Sequence record: NC_031943.1
Reading direction: 5' to 3' (one strand)
DNA length: 40,470 nucleotides
DNA from: Escherichia phage GA2A
In this document: in pieces, positions 28,107-36,788 of the stretch
Position numbering within the stretch: position 1 is the first letter of the stretch
Layout: each line of letters begins with the position of its first letter
The notes under the pieces: generated by a model
Told to the model about the DNA's origin: nothing
Database searches by the model: none
What the model saw: only the letters and a program-made list of their open reading frames with translations
Translations under genes and position numbers: made by a program

Positions 28107-30389
28107 ATGGCTAGTAATATTGAATCAGCTCTGGCTAATCGTACTATGGGTCGTGGCAGAGCGCCGGGTAAAACTATCGCTGTCAACTATCAAGCAGCCA
28201 ACGTACAGGCTCCTACTGGTGACTCTGGTCTGGCCCGTGCGTTAACCAACTTCGTTGAGTCTGGGACTGGATTGTACAAGCAGTTCAAAGACGAGGAGAA
28301 GACCAGAGCCGACGAGCGGTCTAACGAGATTATCCGTAAACTGACACCTCAGCAAAGACGTGAGGCTATCCAGAACGGCACACTGCTGTATCAGGACGAC
28401 CCTTACGCTATGGAAGCACTTCGGGTCAAGACTGGCCGTAACGCTGCCTTTGCGGTGGATGACGAGATTAACGTTAAGATTCAGAACGGTGAGTTCCGTA
28501 CACGTCAGGACATGGAAGAGTATCGCCACCAGCGACTTCAGGACGCCGCTAAGTCCTATGCTGAAGAGGCGGGTATTAACCCTACCGACGAGTTCTTCCA
28601 GCGCGGGTTCAACGATAACATCACAGACCGCAACATCGCTATCTATGGGTCTTTCAATAAGTATTTCAGCAAGCAGTCTGAAGAGACAGCGATGTTGAAC
28701 ACTCGTATTGAGATGAACTCGTTCCTTAACGATGGGGACCTGATGCGTTCGCCTGAGTCTGGAAAGACCTTCATGGCCTACCTTCGTGATGGACTAACGA
28801 CTGCTGCTATCCCTTCGGACCAGCGAGCACGAGAGGTCATTACCCAGACGGTCCGTGATGCAATCCAGAAGTCTGGTGGCTCAAACTTCCTACAGCAAGT
28901 ACGAGGCGAGCGAATCACCCTTAACGGTGTGGACGCTACAGTCGAAGAGATTGTGGGACCTGACGTCTTCAACGCTGCTATTGTTGAGGCACAAGGCACT
29001 GAGTACAAGCTGGTGGCTAAGTATCAGGAGGACTTAGCGTTAGGCGTTCAGTCTGCGATTCTTCAGGACGACCCAACCATCGGTCTTGCCCAGATTCAGA
29101 AACTCAAGGAGCAGAACAACCTGCTTCAGCCGGGGGAAGAACTCACGCCTCAGCGTCAGATGCTTATTAATGCCGAAGCCAGCTTACTGGAAGCGGTCAA
29201 GCGTAAGTCTGCTGAACAGGCGAAGGAGAACACTAAGTTAATCCAGACCCAGAACAAGCAGCTAGTCATAGACCAAGCGTATCAGCGGCGTCTGGCTGGG
29301 GAAAACGTGTCCACCAACTATGAGGACCTTCCGGTATCAGATGCTACAGGCGAGTTCAAACGTTCGGATATGAACAACTATGCGTCTGCCAAGCTACAGC
29401 AGATTGACCAGATGGACATCCCGGAGGCTGCTAAAGACGCTCAGAAGGTGGCATTGTTAAGAGCTGACACTAACAACGGTCCGTTCCGTAATGCCTTCCA
29501 GACGCTGACTCAGGACGCTGCTGGTGAGTGGCAAGCTGCGGTCATCCGTGGACAGTACGACCCAGACAAGATGCAACGCTTCGAATCTCTTCGTCGTGCC
29601 TATACTCAGGACCCTTCAAGTTTTGCTGCTCTGTATCCTGACCAAGCTCAGTTGTTCTCTACGTTCGACCAGATGGACAAGATGGGCCTTGACCCTCAGA
29701 CGATGATTGAAGCTGATAAGCAAGCTGCAAGTCAGAGCAGGGAGATGCGCATGGAGTCAGACAAGGCGTGGCAGGAGTTGAAGAACGACTCCAAGAACAC
29801 CCAGTTGTCCCGCCTCCCAACGTCTCTGGACTCAAGTGCTCGTAAGGTCTGGGACTCATGGTACTATCGAACAGGTAACGCTGACGCTGCAACTCAGCAG
29901 ACTCAACGCTGGCTGAATGAGAACACCGTAACGTTCCAGTCTGAAGGTTCTGACGGTAAGTCCATCGGCATGGTGTCCAAACACCAGCTTATGGTCGGGG
30001 ATAACCCAGAGTCGTGGCAGGTGGGTCGAGACATTATCGACACCGCTCGTCAGCAGCTCATTAAGGCCAACCCTTGGGTAGTGAACTCTCAGTTGTCCGT
30101 TGTTGAACATAACGGCTCTATCTTCCTCCAAGACGCTACGGGGACTATTCGTATTCGCTACGATAAGGAACTTGTAGGTAAACTCTACCGCGAACAACAG
30201 CAGAAGGCACAAGATGCCGCATATGCTCAGGCAGAACGTGACGCCAACAAGCGAGCGCGTATCGTCGGGACTAAAGCTGCTGGTGACAAACGTCGAGCTG
30301 ACCGAGAGGCCAACATCGAGAAGCGAGGTGGGTTGTACAATGACGTCTCACTGGAGGGTATCGCAAACGTACTAATTGGTAGGGAGTAA
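28107..30389 (+). CDS. 15: Internal virion protein C
   Basis: 760 aa; ADERSNEIIRKLTPQQRREAIQNGTLLYQDDPYAMEALRVKTGRNAA nearly identical to T7 gp15; further blocks YDKEL, NPWV. Confidence 0.96.
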   Translation: MASNIESALANRTMGRGRAPGKTIAVNYQAANVQAPTGDSGLARALTNFVESGTGLYKQFKDEEKTRADERSNEIIRKLTPQQRREAIQNGTLLYQDDPYAMEALRVKTGRNAAFAVDDEINVKIQNGEFRTRQDMEEYRHQRLQDAAKSYAEEAGINPTDEFFQRGFNDNITDRNIAIYGSFNKYFSKQSEETAMLNTRIEMNSFLNDGDLMRSPESGKTFMAYLRDGLTTAAIPSDQRAREVITQTVRDAIQKSGGSNFLQQVRGERITLNGVDATVEEIVGPDVFNAAIVEAQGTEYKLVAKYQEDLALGVQSAILQDDPTIGLAQIQKLKEQNNLLQPGEELTPQRQMLINAEASLLEAVKRKSAEQAKENTKLIQTQNKQLVIDQAYQRRLAGENVSTNYEDLPVSDATGEFKRSDMNNYASAKLQQIDQMDIPEAAKDAQKVALLRADTNNGPFRNAFQTLTQDAAGEWQAAVIRGQYDPDKMQRFESLRRAYTQDPSSFAALYPDQAQLFSTFDQMDKMGLDPQTMIEADKQAASQSREMRMESDKAWQELKNDSKNTQLSRLPTSLDSSARKVWDSWYYRTGNADAATQQTQRWLNENTVTFQSEGSDGKSIGMVSKHQLMVGDNPESWQVGRDIIDTARQQLIKANPWVVNSQLSVVEHNGSIFLQDATGTIRIRYDKELVGKLYREQQQKAQDAAYAQAERDANKRARIVGTKAAGDKRRADREANIEKRGGLYNDVSLEGIANVLIGRE

Positions 30390-30394
30390 TAACA

Positions 30395-30844
30395 ATGAAG
30401 AACGGGACAGCCAGTGAGAGACTGGCACGTCTTTCTGCTGTAGAGGAAACTGGCTGTGTCCGCTTCACCGGAGGTCTTAACAGCAGTGGGTATGGAAACT
30501 TATGGGTCGATGGAAAGACAGTAGGAGCGCACCGTGTTGCCTATGAGTTAGCGAATGGTCCGATACCTAAGGGTAGCGTACTGCGACACACTTGCGACAA
30601 CAGGTATTGCGTGAACCCTGAACACTTAGTCTTAGGGACGCATCGTGAAAACATGGAGGATATGACTAAACGTGGTCGTCAGGCAAGAGGCTCACAGATA
30701 AGCACTTGCGTACTGACTGAAGAAGACGTCAGGTTTATCCGCTCAAGTGATAAAAGCGGTGTGGAACTGGCACAGATTTTAGGAATCTCACCAGTAACTA
30801 TCAGTCGAATCAAGAGGAGATTAACATGGCAACACGTGGTATAA
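30395..30844 (+). CDS. HNH endonuclease, second copy, inserted between genes 15 and 16
   Basis: HTCDNRYCVNPEHL core with SGYG...GAHRVAY; paralogous to 19336-19746; 3' end overlaps the start of gene 16 by 19 nt. Confidence 0.85.
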   Translation: MKNGTASERLARLSAVEETGCVRFTGGLNSSGYGNLWVDGKTVGAHRVAYELANGPIPKGSVLRHTCDNRYCVNPEHLVLGTHRENMEDMTKRGRQARGSQISTCVLTEEDVRFIRSSDKSGVELAQILGISPVTISRIKRRLTWQHVV

Positions 30845-33800
30845 GAAATAACAACATCGGGAACATTCGTGTGTCTAAGGACCAATGGGAGGGAGCTACC
30901 GGAGATGATGGAGCATTCGTCACTTTCGATACGCCAGACTCCGGTGTCAGAGCATTAGCAAAGAACCTGATGTCATATGGTAGGCAGGGATACGACTCAA
31001 TCGAGAAGATTATCAACCGCTGGGCACCGCCTAATGAGAACGACACTCAGTCCTACATCAACTCTGTTGTGGCTGCGACTGGCATTCCAGCAACACAAAG
31101 TATCGACCTGACGAACCCTGACGTCCTCGCCTCTCTGTCTGAGGCTATCGGCTACCACGAGACAGGCTCCCGGTACAACCCTGAAGTCTATCAACAGGGA
31201 GTCGCAAGAGCACTCAACGGTATAAGCCCAAAGACTCCACCAGTAAGCGCTAAAGTATTTGACGCACTCACGGAAGGACTCAAGGCTAAACCTAAAGTAG
31301 CTCTTGGTGAGAACCTTCCGACCGCTGCTGGTCTTAACATTGAGGGTCAATCACCTGAGGCTCCCAACGAATCGTTCGGTGAGATGTTCTATAAGGCTAC
31401 TGGAGAGACCATGCAGGAACGAGAGGACCGCTCTACGTGGTTCGGTTTCGGTGAGGCTACAGAAGCTGAAGTGAAGAACTCTATGGTCGGCGTGGCTATA
31501 CGAGCTGGTCAGACTGAGGACTCACTGGATGTCATTGGCGATGTGTTCAACCCGACCAGATGGAACAACCATAAGTGGACTCGTGAGGAGCTGGACCAGA
31601 TTCGTAACGCTGGGGTTCTGCCTCAGTATTACGGAGTCATTACTGGCGGTTCTCCTCAGAATCTGACAGAGCTGATTAACTTGGCTCTTGAGAACCAGAA
31701 GTTGGACCAAGAGAGGGCCAAGGCCGGGACTGGCGCTCAACTGGTGGCTGGTGTGATTGGTGCTGGCGTGGACCCTCTGACCTACGTTCCTATTGCTGGG
31801 CAGGTAGGTAAAGGTGGGAAGCTGATCAACAAGATGTTCACTGTGGCTGCTCAGTCTGGTGCTCTGGCTGGGGCATCCGAGATTGCTCGAACCTCAGTTG
31901 CTGGTGGGGACGCTCATGTGGCTGAGGCAATTATGGGCGGTGCTCTCTTCGGTGGTGGTATGACTGCTATAGCTGATGGACTAGGCAGAGCCTTAGGTCG
32001 CAACACTAACGAGTTCGCTGGTCCAGCTACACGTCTGGAAGCTCGCGAGACCGCTCGTAACGTTGATGGGCAGGACCTGTCTCGTCTACCTATTCAGGAA
32101 GGTGAGCAGACCTTTAGCCACCAAGGCGTTAAGTTTGCTGACGTTCCGAACGAGCCGGGAAGTGTTCGACTGGAAGATGGTTCAATCCTGATTGGTGAGA
32201 ACCCTCTTAACCCTAAGACACGTCAAGTCTTCGACGAGGTGATTGAGCCTGAACGTGCGGCTGCTGGCGTCAACCTTGGAGGACTTACCGAGATTGGCCT
32301 GAAGCTCCTGAGGTCTGAGAACCCTGAGATTCGCGGACTTGCCGCTGACTTGGTGCGCTCGCCTACAGGTATGCAGTCAGGTGCGAGCGGTAAGATTGGG
32401 ACTACAGCGTCAGACGTATTCGAGCGGCTTCGTGCAGTGGACCATCGGTTCTACAATGACATTGACGATGCGGTCACTCAGGCACTGAAGGACCCATACT
32501 TCCAGACCAACTTCAACCGAGACACTGGTGCGTTCCGTCAGGACATCTACCAGCGTGTAGCTCTGGCTATCGAGGACGGAAGTGGGAACCTAAAGGCTGA
32601 ACTGACTCCGGGAGAACTGAAGGTCTATGACCTGCTGAAGAACCAGTTCGACGCTAAGCGTGAGATGATGGAGAACCCTGCGATGTTCGGTCGGGTGGAC
32701 GCTAAGTCTATCTTCCCCGGCAGCCGCTTCAAGGGGACATACGTTCCTCACGTCTACAGCAACCAGATGAAGGAGATGTACATCAAGGAGCTTGGAAGCC
32801 CTGAGGCGCTGCAAGAAGCAATCAAGAAGTCGTGGCTCACGAGCTATGCGTCAAGACCTGAGGTAAAAGCGCGGGTGGATGAGGCTCTGATGGAAGCTGA
32901 CCCTACCCTGACTCCAGAAGGACTTGCGGCTGCGGTAGATAAGTACGCCAACGATAAGGCTTACGGTATCTCTCACACCGACATGTTTGAGCGTTCGTCC
33001 GTAATGGAAGAGAACATCAACGGTCTGGTTGGTCTGGAGAACAACAACTTCCTTGAGGCCCGTAACCTGTTCGATAGCGATATGTCTATCATCCTCCCAA
33101 ACGGTCAGCCGTTCAACGTGAACAGCCTGCGTGAGTGGGACATGGACAAGATTGTCCCGGCGTACAACCGTCGAGTCAACGGCGACATCGCTATCATGGC
33201 TGGCACCGGAAAGACCACGAAGGAGGTTAAGGACACAGTAGAGACCATGATGAACCGTGCTGGTGATGACGGGAAGCTGAAAGGTGAAGTTTCGACTCTG
33301 CGTGATACCCTGAAGATACTGACTGGTCGTGCTCGACGTGATGGTGCTGACGATGCGGCATTAGCTACTGTGATGCGTACCATGACCGACCTCTCCTTCT
33401 TCGCTAAGAATGCCTACATGGGCGTTCAGAACTTAACGGAGATTGGCGGTATGCTGGCACGTGGAAACGTCCGTGCGATGCTGCATGGTATTCCTATCTT
33501 CCGTGACCTCGCCTTCCGTAGTAAGAAGATGGGAGCCTCGGAGATTAAGGAACTTCACAACGTTGTCTTCGGTAAGGAGCTTGACGACTCAATCCGTCCG
33601 TCCAAACAGGATGTCATCGACCGCCTGCGGGCGTACAGTACCTTGAGTAAACCAGCAGCTACGGCTTTGGGTTCTGCCAAGTATTACACTGGTGAACTTG
33701 CGGTCCGCTCTCCGTTTACGAAGGTCCTGAACGGTACGACTAACTACCTGCTGGATGCCGGACGTCAAGGATTCTTGTCTGACATAGTGGAGCACAGCTT

Positions 33801-34713
33801 GACCGGAAGTAAGCGCAAGTTTGACGACCGCTGGTTGAAGACTGCTGGTATTTCGGATGAGCAGTGGAAAGGCATTAAGTCCCTCATCCGTGAGTCAGTG
33901 ACTCGTGGTCCAGACGGGAAGTACACCATCAAGGACAAGAAGGCATTCAGTCAGGACCCAAGGGCTATGGACCTCTGGCGTATGGGTGATACCATCGCTG
34001 ATGAGACCCTGCTCCGTCCACACAAGCTGAGCAACATGGATGCCAAGGCGTATGGACCTCTGGCGAAGACTGTCTTGCAGTTTAAGAACTTCGTCATCAA
34101 GTCCATCAACGGGAGGACCATGCGTACCTTCTACAATGCCACCAAGAACAACAGAGCGATGGACGCCGCACTGTCCACGGTTATGTCTATGGGTCTGGCT
34201 GGAATGTACTACATGGCTCAGTCGCACATCAAGGCTTACGCTATGCAGGAGGGTCGTGACCGAGAGTACCTTAAGCAAGCCCTTAACCCGACAATGATTG
34301 GCTATGCGGCTCTGTCCCGTAGCTCCCACTTGGGTGGTCCTCTTGGTGTCGCCAACATTCTAGGCGGCATCGCTGGGTATGAGGACACTAAGATGCTCCG
34401 TTCGTCTATCCTCCCGCGCTCACCTACAGAGAAGCCTGAACGTGCCGTCACATTTGGTGCGGCTACAAGTGACCCTGTGATGAATGTCGTCGGTAACTTC
34501 TTGGAGCAGGTCCCAGCTTTCGGCTATGCTGCTAACGTTGGTGTTTCGGCATACAACTTGGCTGGCTACCTCAAGGCTGATACTCGTGTCAACGAGCGTG
34601 ACTACATGACCGGGATGTATAACACTTTCCGCGAACTGGTCCCGAACGACCCTATTACGCAGAAGTTGCTTCTTGGAACATTTGAGGAACAAGGCATTCA
34701 CATCAAGGACTAA
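30826..34713 (+). CDS. 16: Internal virion protein D (ejectosome protein) with non-T7 N-terminal domain
   Basis: 1295 aa; from ~residue 190 onward long blocks match T7 gp16 (STWFGFGEATEAE, TGGSPQNL, RLEARETARN, SPTGMQSGASGK, NPAMFG, GTYVPHVY, RPEVKARVDE, ILTGRARR, RAMDLWR, LVPNDP); first ~130 aa lack the T7 transglycosylase signature. Confidence 0.95.
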   Translation: MATRGIRNNNIGNIRVSKDQWEGATGDDGAFVTFDTPDSGVRALAKNLMSYGRQGYDSIEKIINRWAPPNENDTQSYINSVVAATGIPATQSIDLTNPDVLASLSEAIGYHETGSRYNPEVYQQGVARALNGISPKTPPVSAKVFDALTEGLKAKPKVALGENLPTAAGLNIEGQSPEAPNESFGEMFYKATGETMQEREDRSTWFGFGEATEAEVKNSMVGVAIRAGQTEDSLDVIGDVFNPTRWNNHKWTREELDQIRNAGVLPQYYGVITGGSPQNLTELINLALENQKLDQERAKAGTGAQLVAGVIGAGVDPLTYVPIAGQVGKGGKLINKMFTVAAQSGALAGASEIARTSVAGGDAHVAEAIMGGALFGGGMTAIADGLGRALGRNTNEFAGPATRLEARETARNVDGQDLSRLPIQEGEQTFSHQGVKFADVPNEPGSVRLEDGSILIGENPLNPKTRQVFDEVIEPERAAAGVNLGGLTEIGLKLLRSENPEIRGLAADLVRSPTGMQSGASGKIGTTASDVFERLRAVDHRFYNDIDDAVTQALKDPYFQTNFNRDTGAFRQDIYQRVALAIEDGSGNLKAELTPGELKVYDLLKNQFDAKREMMENPAMFGRVDAKSIFPGSRFKGTYVPHVYSNQMKEMYIKELGSPEALQEAIKKSWLTSYASRPEVKARVDEALMEADPTLTPEGLAAAVDKYANDKAYGISHTDMFERSSVMEENINGLVGLENNNFLEARNLFDSDMSIILPNGQPFNVNSLREWDMDKIVPAYNRRVNGDIAIMAGTGKTTKEVKDTVETMMNRAGDDGKLKGEVSTLRDTLKILTGRARRDGADDAALATVMRTMTDLSFFAKNAYMGVQNLTEIGGMLARGNVRAMLHGIPIFRDLAFRSKKMGASEIKELHNVVFGKELDDSIRPSKQDVIDRLRAYSTLSKPAATALGSAKYYTGELAVRSPFTKVLNGTTNYLLDAGRQGFLSDIVEHSLTGSKRKFDDRWLKTAGISDEQWKGIKSLIRESVTRGPDGKYTIKDKKAFSQDPRAMDLWRMGDTIADETLLRPHKLSNMDAKAYGPLAKTVLQFKNFVIKSINGRTMRTFYNATKNNRAMDAALSTVMSMGLAGMYYMAQSHIKAYAMQEGRDREYLKQALNPTMIGYAALSRSSHLGGPLGVANILGGIAGYEDTKMLRSSILPRSPTEKPERAVTFGAATSDPVMNVVGNFLEQVPAFGYAANVGVSAYNLAGYLKADTRVNERDYMTGMYNTFRELVPNDPITQKLLLGTFEEQGIHIKD

Positions 34714-34778: not shown

Positions 34779-36788
34779 ATGGCTAACTCTACGCTGACAC
34801 AGTTCCCATCTGGTCAGGTTCGATATAAGATTAACTTCCCGTACCTCGCACGCGCGTTCGTGGTCGTCACTCTTGTGGTATCCACTGACCCAACGAAAGA
34901 CAGGGTGCTGGTAGTGGGGAATGACTATCGGTTCCTGAACGAGACGACCCTTGAGATTCTGGCAGACCAGACCGGGTTCGATATCATCCAGATTCACCGC
35001 TTCACGTCCACTGAACTGGTGGTTGACTTCCGTGACGGCTCAGTCCTGACTGCAAGTGACCTGTCCACCGCAGAGATTCAGGCCATCCACATCGCCGAAG
35101 AGGGCCGCGACCAGTCCATAAACCTTGCGTCTGGCTACGCTGAAGAAGCCAAGAAGTACGCTGACGAAGCTGGAGATGCTCTGGAGGGTATCAAAGATAT
35201 CGTTCAGGATGGGAACTTCGACTCGACCTTGCGTCAGGACCTTCGAAGCGATACAGGCCTTACTATGGTACACCGTAAGCTGCCGGACGTTGGGTCCGTT
35301 AACGTTGGATTGGACGCATTGTTCAGCAACATGCTTAACCCTGTGGACTTCGGTGCAGACCCTACTGGAAGTGTTGACTCCTACGCTGCGCTCCAGAAGT
35401 GGGCCGATGCCTGCACAGCTCGTGGATGGGCCTATGCTTACATCGCTGGCATCTTCAAGACCAGTCAGCCGATTACCTTCCGGGGACTTAAAGGCCTGAC
35501 CATCTACGGTCAATGCTATATCTACCCTACGTTCTCCTCTGGTGACTACGTGGTTGGCTTCTGTAATGGTACAGGTCTGCGCATCTATGGCCGATTCGAG
35601 GTCTCCGGACAGAACAAGCTCTATGTTAAGAGCGGTGTTAAAATCTGGTCAGACATGAACCCTAACGGTTTCTCGTTCAGCGACTTCTATGGGCTGTGTG
35701 TTTCTGATGCGGCTACAGGCATCACTCTTGGTGATACTCGTTATGCCAACGCGCTGCTGTCTGAGCTGTCATTCATTGGGAGCTACACGGTCGGGACTCC
35801 TTGTGCAATCCGTGCTATTGGTACTCAGTGCTACTTCAACACCATCGGATTTAACGCTGTAACTGGCGGGGCGGGCGACCTTGCTCAAATCACCCCATAC
35901 ACCTACCACCTGAAGGGCGCACAGCTTAAAATCATCGGCGGTGAGCTACAGCACAACGCGTCCATCTTCGGAGCTGGTGCGCTGGTTGAGCCTATCCTTG
36001 ACCCGGTTCACGGGAACACCTATGGTAACCTGACCATTGACCAGAACCACTTCGAGGTGGCTAGCCTGTGGGTAATGATTGCCAATCTGGATGGAGTACC
36101 AAACCCTATCAGCGCGCGCTCCACTGTTGCCTTGCTGGGACTCCACGGTTATCACAACCAAGACAATGGACCTGTAGTCCTAGTCCATGAGTCTGCTGAT
36201 GACTACCGTGGCACAATCGTTACGCGAGACATCTCCATGTACCGAAACGATGACCAGCCTACCCGTGTTAACATTAACATTCAGGCCCGCAACGCCTATG
36301 TTGACTACGACCGCAAAGGCTTCGGTAAAGGCTTCGTGAAAGGCCTTCAGGCTGTTCAGGGTGGCATCCTTAAGTTCGAGAAGGCGACCGTATGCATCGC
36401 TCAGAACTCCGTAGGTCAGACCCACACGACTACACCAAATAACGTCCTGTACACACAGTTCGTAGCCAACGGTGATACTGACCGCTGGTCTTCCAACTAC
36501 AATCCGGCGACTGGTGAGTTTACTGTTCCGGCTGGCGGACTCAAGGATGTTCATGTGGAGGCAACTGTAGAGGTTGCTAGCTCAAGTCAGGTTACAATGG
36601 CTGTGTACGTTGATAACGACCGCAAGAGCCTCGTTCAGACCCTGCCTATTGCTGGTCACACGTCAGCGTACTTAGGTCATCTCCCGGCAGGCGCTAAGAT
36701 TAGCGTTAAGTGTCAACTGGGTGCTGGCTCAGGTGCTGCTACCGGGTCAGGTCTCGACCGAATGATCATTACCGCTTCAAACTACTAA
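34779..36788 (+). CDS. 17: Tail fiber / tailspike with depolymerase-like C-terminal domain
   Basis: N-terminal ~150 aa match the T7 gp17 tail-attachment domain ([42 protein letters not shown]); the rest is unrelated to T7 and carries [23 protein letters not shown], typical of right-handed beta-helix polysaccharide depolymerases. Confidence 0.9.

What the first reader, a model, noticed from the sequence alone, without database searches (positions are those of the whole stretch)
30826..31250. gp16 N-terminal domain is not the canonical T7 lytic transglycosylase
From about residue 190 onward gp16 aligns block by block with T7 gp16. The first ~130 aa (MATRGIRNNNIGNIRVSKDQWEGATGDD...) do not carry the transglycosylase signature that I recall at the T7 gp16 N-terminus. 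This looks like a domain swap in the cell-wall-penetrating head of the ejectosome, possibly a different peptidoglycan hydrolase or binding module. It is also the region overlapped by the upstream HNH gene, so the insertion and the swap may be connected.
Basis: inference. Interest (0 to 1): 0.5.

Follow-up and report, generated by a model that had tools for sequence, protein, structure and literature searches.

The report
Different cell-wall enzyme on phage gp16
The DNA-injection protein gp16 of this K1F-like phage carries a small helical cell-wall-cutting domain of the already characterised Enc34/PM2-P5 lysin family where T7 has a lytic transglycosylase; the exchange is real but ordinary, is shared by all its close relatives, and has nothing to do with the neighbouring HNH gene.

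Summary
gp16 (30826-34713, 1295 aa) matches T7 gp16 only from residue ~125 (T7 ~152). Residues 1-124 have no SLT signal: no Pfam hit, no BLASTP alignment, and hhalign probability 1.1%. T7, T3 and three other gp16 N-termini hit SLT at 1e-19 to 1e-31.

The HNH link is not. K1F, SAKp10309 and vB_VIPECLMC06 lack the HNH gene and have the same domain. The HNH gene sits exactly between the gene 15 stop and the gene 16 start, and overlaps only 19 nt of gene 16.

About 222 Kayfunavirus-type records share the domain. It also heads gp16 homologues in Morganella phage MP2 and Ralstonia phage RS-PI-1, and lies inside epsilon15 gp15. The type of N-terminal domain disagrees with the gp16 body tree, so this position has been refilled more than once.

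This is a known module in a known role. Its main value is correcting annotation. Interest is low to moderate.

The parts
30826..31215 (+). gp16 residues 1-130: Enc34/PM2-P5/PHA02564-type, mostly helical peptidoglycan glycosidase domain, in the position of the T7 SLT domain
31021..31023 (+). codon TGG = W66, equivalent to Enc34 Trp79 (substrate-positioning aromatic residue)
   Evidence: Residue mapping. Present in at least 90% of 30 homologues. Invariant in 7 Kayfunavirus-type gp16.
31054..31056 (+). codon TAC = Y77, equivalent to Enc34 Tyr95
   Evidence: Invariant in A1 and A4.
31159..31161 (+). codon GAG = E112 (motif GYHETGS), equivalent to the proposed catalytic Glu131 of Enc34
   Evidence: Invariant in A1 and A4. 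The role of Glu131 is from PMC8943055.
31198..31428 (+). gp16 residues ~125-201: extended linker homologous to T7 gp16 ~152-228, the 'molecular tape' that binds gp15; homology to T7 resumes here
   Evidence: Alignments. T7 domain limits (1-156 SLT, 157-228 tape) are from PMC8954989.
31429..34713 (+). gp16 body (inner-membrane and cytoplasmic part of the ejectosome), orthologous to T7 gp16
   Evidence: phmmer to 7eyb_I, E=0, 1297 bits. About 95% identical to PDB 9vvp_L 'Gp29'.
30395..30844 (+). HNH homing-endonuclease gene (HNH_3 plus a C-terminal HTH) inserted between genes 15 and 16; its last 19 nt are the first 19 nt of gene 16
   Evidence: Pfam HNH_3 2.2e-16. Absent at this site in K1F, SAKp10309 and MC06. 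Junction alignments.
30812..30819 (+). Shine-Dalgarno AAGAGGAG for gene 16, lying inside the 3' end of the HNH gene
   Evidence: Read from the sequence. Conserved in the HNH+ relatives TM1 and Pipis, and annotated as an RBS in Pipis.
28107..30389 (+). gene 15 (internal virion protein C), the partner of gp16 in the periplasmic tunnel
   Evidence: phmmer to T7 gp15 1.8e-211 and to 9vvp_I 'Gp28'.

Best explanation
Residues 1 to about 124-130 of gp16 form a compact, mostly helical peptidoglycan glycosidase domain of the Enc34-endolysin / PM2-P5 / PHA02564 family. It sits exactly where T7 gp16 has its SLT (GH23) lytic transglycosylase. From residue ~125 the protein is an ordinary T7-type gp16, with the gp15-binding 'molecular tape' followed by the membrane and cytoplasmic body.

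Inferred mechanism, by analogy with T7: gp16 is packaged in the internal core (8 gp15 to 4 gp16, as in PDB 9vvp) and is ejected through the tail at infection. Its N-terminal domain then cuts glycan strands locally in the periplasm, so that the gp15-gp16 tunnel can cross the cell wall. E112 would act as the catalytic acid, and W66 and Y77 would position the sugar. The bond cut is probably the GlcNAc-MurNAc (N-acetylglucosaminidase) linkage, as found for the family member M4Lys, and not the lytic transglycosylase reaction of T7.

Shown here: homology, fold and conserved signature residues; absence of SLT; sharing across the whole lineage; independence from the HNH gene. Inferred: catalytic activity, bond specificity and role at infection.
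For: Sequence: phmmer to the Enc34 catalytic domain 7q47_A gives E=6.3e-12 over residues 3-123, with 43% identity over the aligned pairs. PHROG 873 'endolysin' scores 6.9e-51, and the domain also matches PHROGs for a tape-measure protein and a 'tail injection transglycosylase'.

Signature residues: W66, Y77 and E112 align to Enc34 W79, Y95 and E131 with a constant +1 chain offset. Y77 and E112 are invariant and W66 is at least 90% conserved in 30 homologues of 39-56% identity. All three are invariant in 7 Kayfunavirus-type gp16.

Family biochemistry: the Enc34 domain is muralytic on E. coli, P. aeruginosa and Hafnia sacculi (PMC8943055). M4Lys shows N-acetylglucosaminidase products by LC-MS (PMC7143992).

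Not SLT.

Position and role: the body and tape region are homologous to T7, and the T7 domain roles are from PMC8954989. The same domain occupies the N-terminus of gp16 homologues in Morganella phage MP2 (2e-37) and Ralstonia phage RS-PI-1 (4e-29). It also lies inside the epsilon15 ejection protein gp15.
Confidence: 0.8

Rival explanations
1. The N-terminus is a highly diverged but standard SLT/GH23 lytic transglycosylase.
For: Many GenBank records label the protein 'peptidoglycan lytic exotransglycosylase' or 'peptidoglycan transglycosylase'. The Enc34 paper argues for a very distant common ancestry of this fold with GH73 and GH23.
Confidence: 0.02
2. The domain keeps the fold but is not an enzyme in this context. 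It would serve as a peptidoglycan-binding or purely structural 'wing' on the gp15 tunnel.
For: In T7 the SLT activity is dispensable under standard conditions (Moak and Molineux 2000, as cited). Vibrio phage ICP3 gp16 has no N-terminal lysin domain at all, so the ejectosome can work without one on gp16.
Against: The three signature residues are strictly conserved across Kayfunavirus-type gp16 at 84-95% overall identity. Two are invariant and one is at least 90% conserved across distant free-standing lysins. The domain is about as similar to free-standing family members of 130-215 aa, mostly unnamed or labelled only 'structural protein' (39-56% identity), as those are to each other.
Confidence: 0.12
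3. The HNH homing endonuclease brought the new domain in, or caused the swap by co-conversion when it inserted.
For: The HNH gene abuts gene 16 and overlaps it by 19 nt. The first 12 codons of gene 16 differ more than average from K1F at the DNA level.
Against: K1F, SAKp10309 and vB_VIPECLMC06 have gene 15 followed directly by gene 16, without the HNH gene, and carry the same domain. The window's own allele (95% identical, including I11) occurs in HNH-less MC06. The differences specific to HNH+ genomes are synonymous: I6 ATT to ATA and R7 CGC to AGA, which create the HNH stop codon. The counts of phage records carrying the domain and carrying the Kayfunavirus-type body at >=60% identity are both 222.
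Confidence: 0.03

Closest known systems
Hafnia phage Enc34 ORF39 endolysin catalytic domain (PDB 7Q47; CDD PHA02564 'V virion protein' family), and its relative M4Lys of Salmonella phage BSPM4
   Different: Enc34 and M4Lys are lysis-cassette endolysins with a C-terminal transmembrane domain. Here the domain is the N-terminal head of a 1295-aa ejection protein. The gp16 version is a shorter form, lacking several Enc34 loop insertions.
T7 gp16 N-terminal SLT (GH23) lytic transglycosylase, residues 1-156, catalytic E37
   Same: Same position in the same protein, immediately before the gp15-binding tape. Presumably the same job of local wall opening during ejectosome assembly.
   Different: No detectable sequence or profile homology. 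Different family, a different location for the catalytic Glu, and probably different chemistry (hydrolase/glucosaminidase versus non-hydrolytic transglycosylase).
PM2 protein P5 and its homologues in Vinavirales ('structural protein P5')
   Same: Same domain family, assigned by structure prediction against 7Q47 with the same W/Y/E triad (bioRxiv 10.1101/2022.07.18.500477). This is the likely source of the 'structural protein' labels on the closest free-standing homologues.
   Different: A separate small protein of a tailless, membrane-containing phage, not fused to an ejection protein.
gp16 (IVP-D) homologues of Morganella phage MP2 (Minipunavirus) and Ralstonia phage RS-PI-1 (Okabevirinae), and epsilon15 gp15
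   Same: The same Enc34-type domain is built into podovirus ejection proteins. It is N-terminal in MP2 (44% identity) and RS-PI-1 (42% identity), and internal in epsilon15 gp15 (48% identity).
   Different: The bodies are much more distant (52% and 21% identity over the ungapped body columns). MP2 has Tyr in place of W66. The domain is about as far from the window's as free-standing family members are, which suggests separate acquisitions.
SP6 / K1-5 / phiKMV internal virion proteins with lysozyme domains
   Same: The same general principle: internal virion proteins host exchangeable muralytic domains (PMC5380687; PMC4819975; PMC8954989).
   Different: Different lysin families, and often on a different ejection protein or at its C-terminus.

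Membership tests
Enc34-type / PHA02564 / PM2-P5-like lysin domain | Significant sequence similarity to the Enc34 catalytic domain | tested here: met
   phmmer E=6.3e-12, query 3-123 against chain 7-140. 50 of 117 aligned residues are identical.
Enc34-type / PHA02564 / PM2-P5-like lysin domain | Compact, mostly helical fold resembling the lysozyme alpha-lobe, without a proper beta-lobe | tested here: met
Enc34-type / PHA02564 / PM2-P5-like lysin domain | Conserved Trp79 / Tyr95 / Glu131 signature in the groove | tested here: met
   W66, Y77 and E112 align to them. Y77 and E112 are invariant and W66 is at least 90% conserved in 30 homologues. All three are invariant in 7 gp16.
Enc34-type / PHA02564 / PM2-P5-like lysin domain | Peptidoglycan-degrading activity | not testable with these tools
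   Shown for Enc34 and M4Lys only.
SLT / GH23 lytic transglycosylase (T7 gp16-N type) | Match to Pfam PF01464 SLT | tested here: not met
   No hit at E<=1. Positive controls T7, T3, TVB03, fPS-10 and Haage score 1.6e-19 to 2.6e-31.
SLT / GH23 lytic transglycosylase (T7 gp16-N type) | Alignable to gp16 SLT domains, with the catalytic Glu-Ser motif (T7 E37) on the early helix | tested here: not met
   BLASTP gives no alignment. hhalign probability is 1.1%. E37 and S38 are invariant in the SLT set and have no counterpart in the forced alignment.
SLT / GH23 lytic transglycosylase (T7 gp16-N type) | GH23 fold as closest structural neighbour | tested here: not met
GH73 N-acetylglucosaminidases (FlgJ, TM0633) | Structural similarity strong enough for family assignment, including the beta-hairpin lobe | tested here: inconclusive
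T7 gp16 / internal virion protein D | Full-length homology of the body and gene order 14-15-16-17 | tested here: met
   7eyb_I E=0 over residues 125-1294. gp15 upstream. A gene with a T7 tail-fibre N-terminal domain downstream. ORF map.
T7 gp16 / internal virion protein D | gp15-binding 'molecular tape' after the lysin domain | tested here: met
   Window residues 125-201 align with T7 152-228, with conserved GI(S/T)PK, LP and F..F..GET motifs. Binding itself was not tested.

The most novel reading that the evidence does not exclude
The N-terminus of gp16 (IVP-D) is a plug-in slot that has been refilled several times within Autographiviridae: SLT in T7, T3, Przondovirus-like phages, Helsettvirus and Pifdecavirus; Enc34-type in Kayfunavirus, Minipunavirus and Ampunavirus; nothing in Chatterjeevirus. 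In that case the Enc34-type head would give these ejectosomes a different chemistry (hydrolytic N-acetylglucosaminidase) from T7's lytic transglycosylase. Tunnel assembly would then need only a local glycan break, not a particular reaction or product. Neither SLT-bearing nor Enc34-bearing gp16 bodies form a single group in a simple NJ tree (84% bootstrap for the discordant split).
Probability: 0.4. Interest if true: 0.35.

Novelty: new member of a known kind. Interest (0 to 1): 0.27.

Why it matters
The main consequence is for annotation and experiment design. More than 200 Kayfunavirus-type genomes label this protein 'lytic (exo)transglycosylase' or 'endolysin domain' by transfer from T7. A 2025 survey reported that in-silico tools found no domain in these 1295-aa proteins (PMC12031403). 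Assigning the head to the Enc34/PM2-P5 family gives a concrete catalytic residue to mutate (E112) and predicts a different reaction product. It also offers natural material for domain-swap tests of what the T7-type ejectosome needs from its wall-cutting head. The biology is not surprising, because exchangeable lysin modules on ejection proteins are an established theme.

Tried and rejected
1. Pfam and NCBIfam scans of residues 1-190 and of the full protein gave nothing usable. Only PHROGs and the PDB sequence search identified the domain.

2. My first profile-profile test against 'SLT' gp16 N-termini gave 98% probability. This was an artefact: I had included Morganella phage MP2, whose N-terminus turned out to be Enc34-type. 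Repeating it without MP2 gave 1.1%.

3. The HNH link was rejected.

4. I11 in the RNNNPGN motif is not a lesion caused by the HNH insertion. It occurs in HNH-less MC06, and the position varies across the family.

5. Base composition around the junction shows no clear foreign-DNA signal. GC is 0.47-0.52, against 0.51-0.57 nearby. Promoter and terminator scans were at chance level.

6. No paper was found for PDB 9vvp. The K1F genome paper (PMC1317022) and the T7 tunnel paper (PMC8349896) are not held, so I cannot say whether Scholl and Merril already noted the missing SLT motif.

7. Rooting the gp16 tree with RS-PI-1 was unreliable (21% identity, low bootstraps), so I make no claim about which head is ancestral.

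8. The search for homologous proteins returned no full-length Kayfunavirus gp16 among the listed hits, which were short proteins of 118-226 aa at 43-56% identity. The lineage distribution was therefore taken from tblastn against the phage collection.

Full report
**What is there.** The window is a complete-length T7-like genome (40.5 kb) with the late gene order 14, 15, HNH, 16, 17. At the DNA level it is closest to Kayfunavirus (K1F-like) phages: 89% identity to Escherichia phage TM1, with 217 matching records. Gene 16 runs from 30826 to 34713 and encodes 1295 aa. It is preceded by a strong Shine-Dalgarno sequence (AAGAGGAG, 30812-30819) that lies inside the 3' end of a 149-aa HNH_3/HTH homing-endonuclease gene at 30395-30844.

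**Checking the observation.** phmmer against all PDB chains aligns T7 gp16 (7eyb_I, 6yt5_G) only over residues 125-1294 of the query, matching T7 152-1314 (E=0). The first 135 residues give no BLASTP alignment to T7 gp16 1-155 and no Pfam SLT hit. The same scan finds SLT in the first 160 residues of T7 (2.6e-31), T3 (3.1e-31), Klebsiella phage TVB03 (1.9e-27), Yersinia phage fPS-10 (2.7e-23) and Pseudomonas phage Haage (1.6e-19). A profile-profile comparison of a 30-sequence alignment of the new domain against a 5-sequence gp16-SLT alignment gives 1.1% probability. The boundary is near residue 125, not 190. According to the T7 literature, this is where the SLT 'wing' (1-156) ends and the gp15-binding 'molecular tape' (157-228) begins (PMC8954989; alignment).

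**What the domain is.**
- Residues 3-123 match the crystal-structure sequence 7Q47 at E=6e-12.
- 7Q47 is the catalytic domain of the unusual endolysin of Hafnia phage Enc34. It belongs to CDD family PHA02564 ('V virion protein'). [quoted passage not shown] Its proposed catalytic residue is Glu131, with Trp79 and Tyr95, and its helix order is permuted relative to GH73 and GH23 (PMC8943055).
- PHROGs gives the same answer: phrog_873 'endolysin' at 6.9e-51, plus matches inside a tape-measure protein, a 'head protein' and a 'tail injection transglycosylase' family.
- An AlphaFold2 model built on 30 homologues is confident (pLDDT 88.2, pTM 0.82, ordered to residue ~130).
- Foldseek finds only 7q47 as a significant hit (TM 0.80, probability 1.00).
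- Residue mapping puts W66, Y77 and E112 on Enc34 W79, Y95 and E131.
- Y77 and E112 are invariant and W66 is at least 90% conserved across 30 homologues of 39-56% identity. All three are invariant in seven Kayfunavirus-type gp16.
- The family member M4Lys releases GlcNAc from muropeptides, which indicates N-acetylglucosaminidase activity (PMC7143992).
- PM2 P5 and its Vinavirales homologues were assigned to the same fold and triad.

**The HNH gene.** K1F, Klebsiella phage SAKp10309 and Enterobacter phage vB_VIPECLMC06 have gene 15 followed within a few bases by gene 16, with no HNH gene. Their gp16 N-termini are 87-95% identical to the window's. Junction alignments show a clean insertion between the gene 15 stop codon and the gene 16 ATG. 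The old gene 16 ribosome-binding context (GGAGTAA-TAACA-ATG) now serves the HNH gene. The HNH gene brings a new SD sequence for gene 16 and reads 19 nt into it. The only changes specific to HNH-containing genomes are synonymous: I6 ATT to ATA and R7 CGC to AGA, which create the HNH stop codon. The unusual Ile at position 11 (most family members have RNNNPGN) also occurs in HNH-less MC06, and the position varies across the family. The insertion and the different head are therefore unrelated.

**Distribution.**
- tblastn of the domain finds 737 phage records. Of these, 222 are at least 60% identical.
- tblastn of gp16 residues 191-690 finds 1274 records, again with exactly 222 at 60% identity or more. 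The other ~1050 are below 60% and include the T7, T3 and Klebsiella Przondovirus-like groups. The five of those that I sampled carry SLT.
- The domain is therefore a fixed feature of the Kayfunavirus-type gp16.
- It is not unique to that lineage. Morganella phage MP2 (Minipunavirus) gp16 starts with the same domain (44% identity, 2e-37).
- The Ralstonia phage RS-PI-1 (Okabevirinae) gp16 homologue also starts with it (42% identity, 4e-29).
- Epsilon15 ejection protein gp15 has it internally.
- It is also found near the C-terminus of a 562-aa protein of Aeromonas phage 51 and as a free 138-aa protein in D3112-like Pseudomonas phages.
- It is found as well in chi-like endolysins and in many short (118-226 aa) proteins that are mostly unnamed; some from Enterobacterales genomes are labelled 'structural protein'.
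- Vibrio phage ICP3 gp16 has no N-terminal lysin domain at all.

**Body tree.** A simple NJ tree of the gp16 body used 564 ungapped columns and 500 bootstraps. It groups MP2 (Enc34-type) with the T7/T3/TVB03/fPS-10 SLT clade, and Kayfunavirus with Haage (SLT) and ICP3 (no domain), with 84% support for that split. Head type is therefore discordant with body phylogeny. The MP2 head is no closer to the window's (44%) than the free-standing family members are (39-56%). This points to repeated refilling of the N-terminal slot, although the tree is crude and its root is unresolved.

**Mechanism.** Shown here: the domain's family, fold, conserved signature residues and position before the tape. Inferred from T7 (PMC8954989): gp16 is stored in the core and ejected through the tail. 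A near-identical phage core has been solved as PDB 9vvp, with 8 chains of the gp15 homologue and 4 of the gp16 homologue. Once in the periplasm, the N-terminal domain would cut the wall locally while the tape staples the gp15 hexamer into the periplasmic tunnel. I estimate a probability of about 0.8 that the domain is an active glycosidase used this way. Within that, a glucosaminidase-type hydrolysis is the most likely chemistry, but this has not been tested.

**Novelty and literature.** Exchangeable 'tail lysozyme' domains on internal virion proteins are an established concept (PMC4819975; PMC5380687; PMC8954989), and the Enc34 family has been characterised. In the held library I found no paper that assigns the Kayfunavirus gp16 head to this family. 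No paper combines Enc34 with any of the gp16, K1F or Kayfunavirus terms, and the only two papers that mention PHA02564 are the Enc34 and M4Lys papers. A 2025 survey states that in-silico tools found no domain in these 1295-aa proteins. Database labels such as 'lytic exotransglycosylase' look like transfers from T7. The finding is a correct observation with an ordinary explanation: a known module in a known role. It is useful for annotation and for designing mutants.

Noticed in passing
window 30395-30844 (junctions at 30389/30395 and 30826/30844): The HNH_3+HTH homing-endonuclease gene is inserted exactly between the gene 15 stop and the gene 16 ATG. It takes over the old gene 16 ribosome-binding context, supplies a new SD sequence for gene 16, and ends 19 nt inside gene 16. 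The TAA stop codon is made by synonymous recoding of gp16 codons 6-7 (ATT CGC to ATA AGA). CR44b carries a divergent HNH variant at the same site.
   Followed up: yes
L015:307-720 (Morganella phage vB_MmoP_MP2 gp16, KX078568): The N-terminus is also Enc34-type (44% identity, motif RNNNIGNI, Tyr in place of W66, Glu kept), although the gp16 body groups with SLT-bearing phages in my NJ tree. It is annotated only as 'internal virion protein D'.
   Followed up: partly
L017:766-1065 (Vibrio phage ICP3_2009_B gp16, HQ641341): This gp16 is only 1127 aa and starts about 45 residues before the region homologous to window residue ~198. It has no N-terminal muralytic domain and no Pfam hit. I did not look for where, or whether, this phage carries a virion lysin.
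   Followed up: no
L010:3941-4360 (Ralstonia phage RS-PI-1, NC_047816, HOR67_gp11): The 1686-aa IVP-D homologue of an Okabevirinae phage starts with the same Enc34-type domain (42% identity). It is labelled simply 'endolysin'.
   Followed up: partly
L008:4001-4336 (epsilon15 gp15, AY150271): The 842-aa ejection protein gp15 contains the Enc34-type domain internally (from about residue 267, 48% identity). It is annotated 'putative lytic transglycosylase' on the basis of an HHpred hit to SltB. I did not check whether it has two muralytic domains.
   Followed up: no
Phage collection hits H6 (MT350292 'Enterococcus phage EFA-1') and H26 (OR786095 'Staphylococcus phage MBBL139'): Genomes 88-90% identical to this enterobacterial Kayfunavirus-type region are deposited with Gram-positive hosts. 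These are probably mislabelled hosts or contaminants.
   Followed up: no
window 34779-36788: Gene 17 encodes 669 aa, with a T7 tail-fibre N-terminal adaptor domain only at residues 14-113 (Pfam 9.4e-20). The rest has no Pfam hit. K1F gp17 is 1064 aa (an endosialidase), so the receptor-binding part differs from K1F and the host glycan target is unknown.
   Followed up: partly
PDB 9vvp (chains I and L) compared with window 28107-34713: A solved structure holds 'Gp28' (760 aa, 8 chains) and 'Gp29' (1295 aa, 4 chains), both near-identical to the window's gp15 and gp16. This looks like the internal core of a very close relative. No paper was found, and the N-terminal domain did not appear in the Foldseek PDB search. 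It may be unresolved, or the entry may be newer than the structure library.
   Followed up: partly
P0001 (202 aa, on a 1753-bp contig; alignment): The closest homologue in the metagenome-scale protein search (56% identity) continues past the domain into a gp16-like 'tape' sequence (GITPKSKPIG...KLGEGL...). It is probably a fragment of a gp16 from an unsampled T7-like lineage that also carries this head.
   Followed up: no
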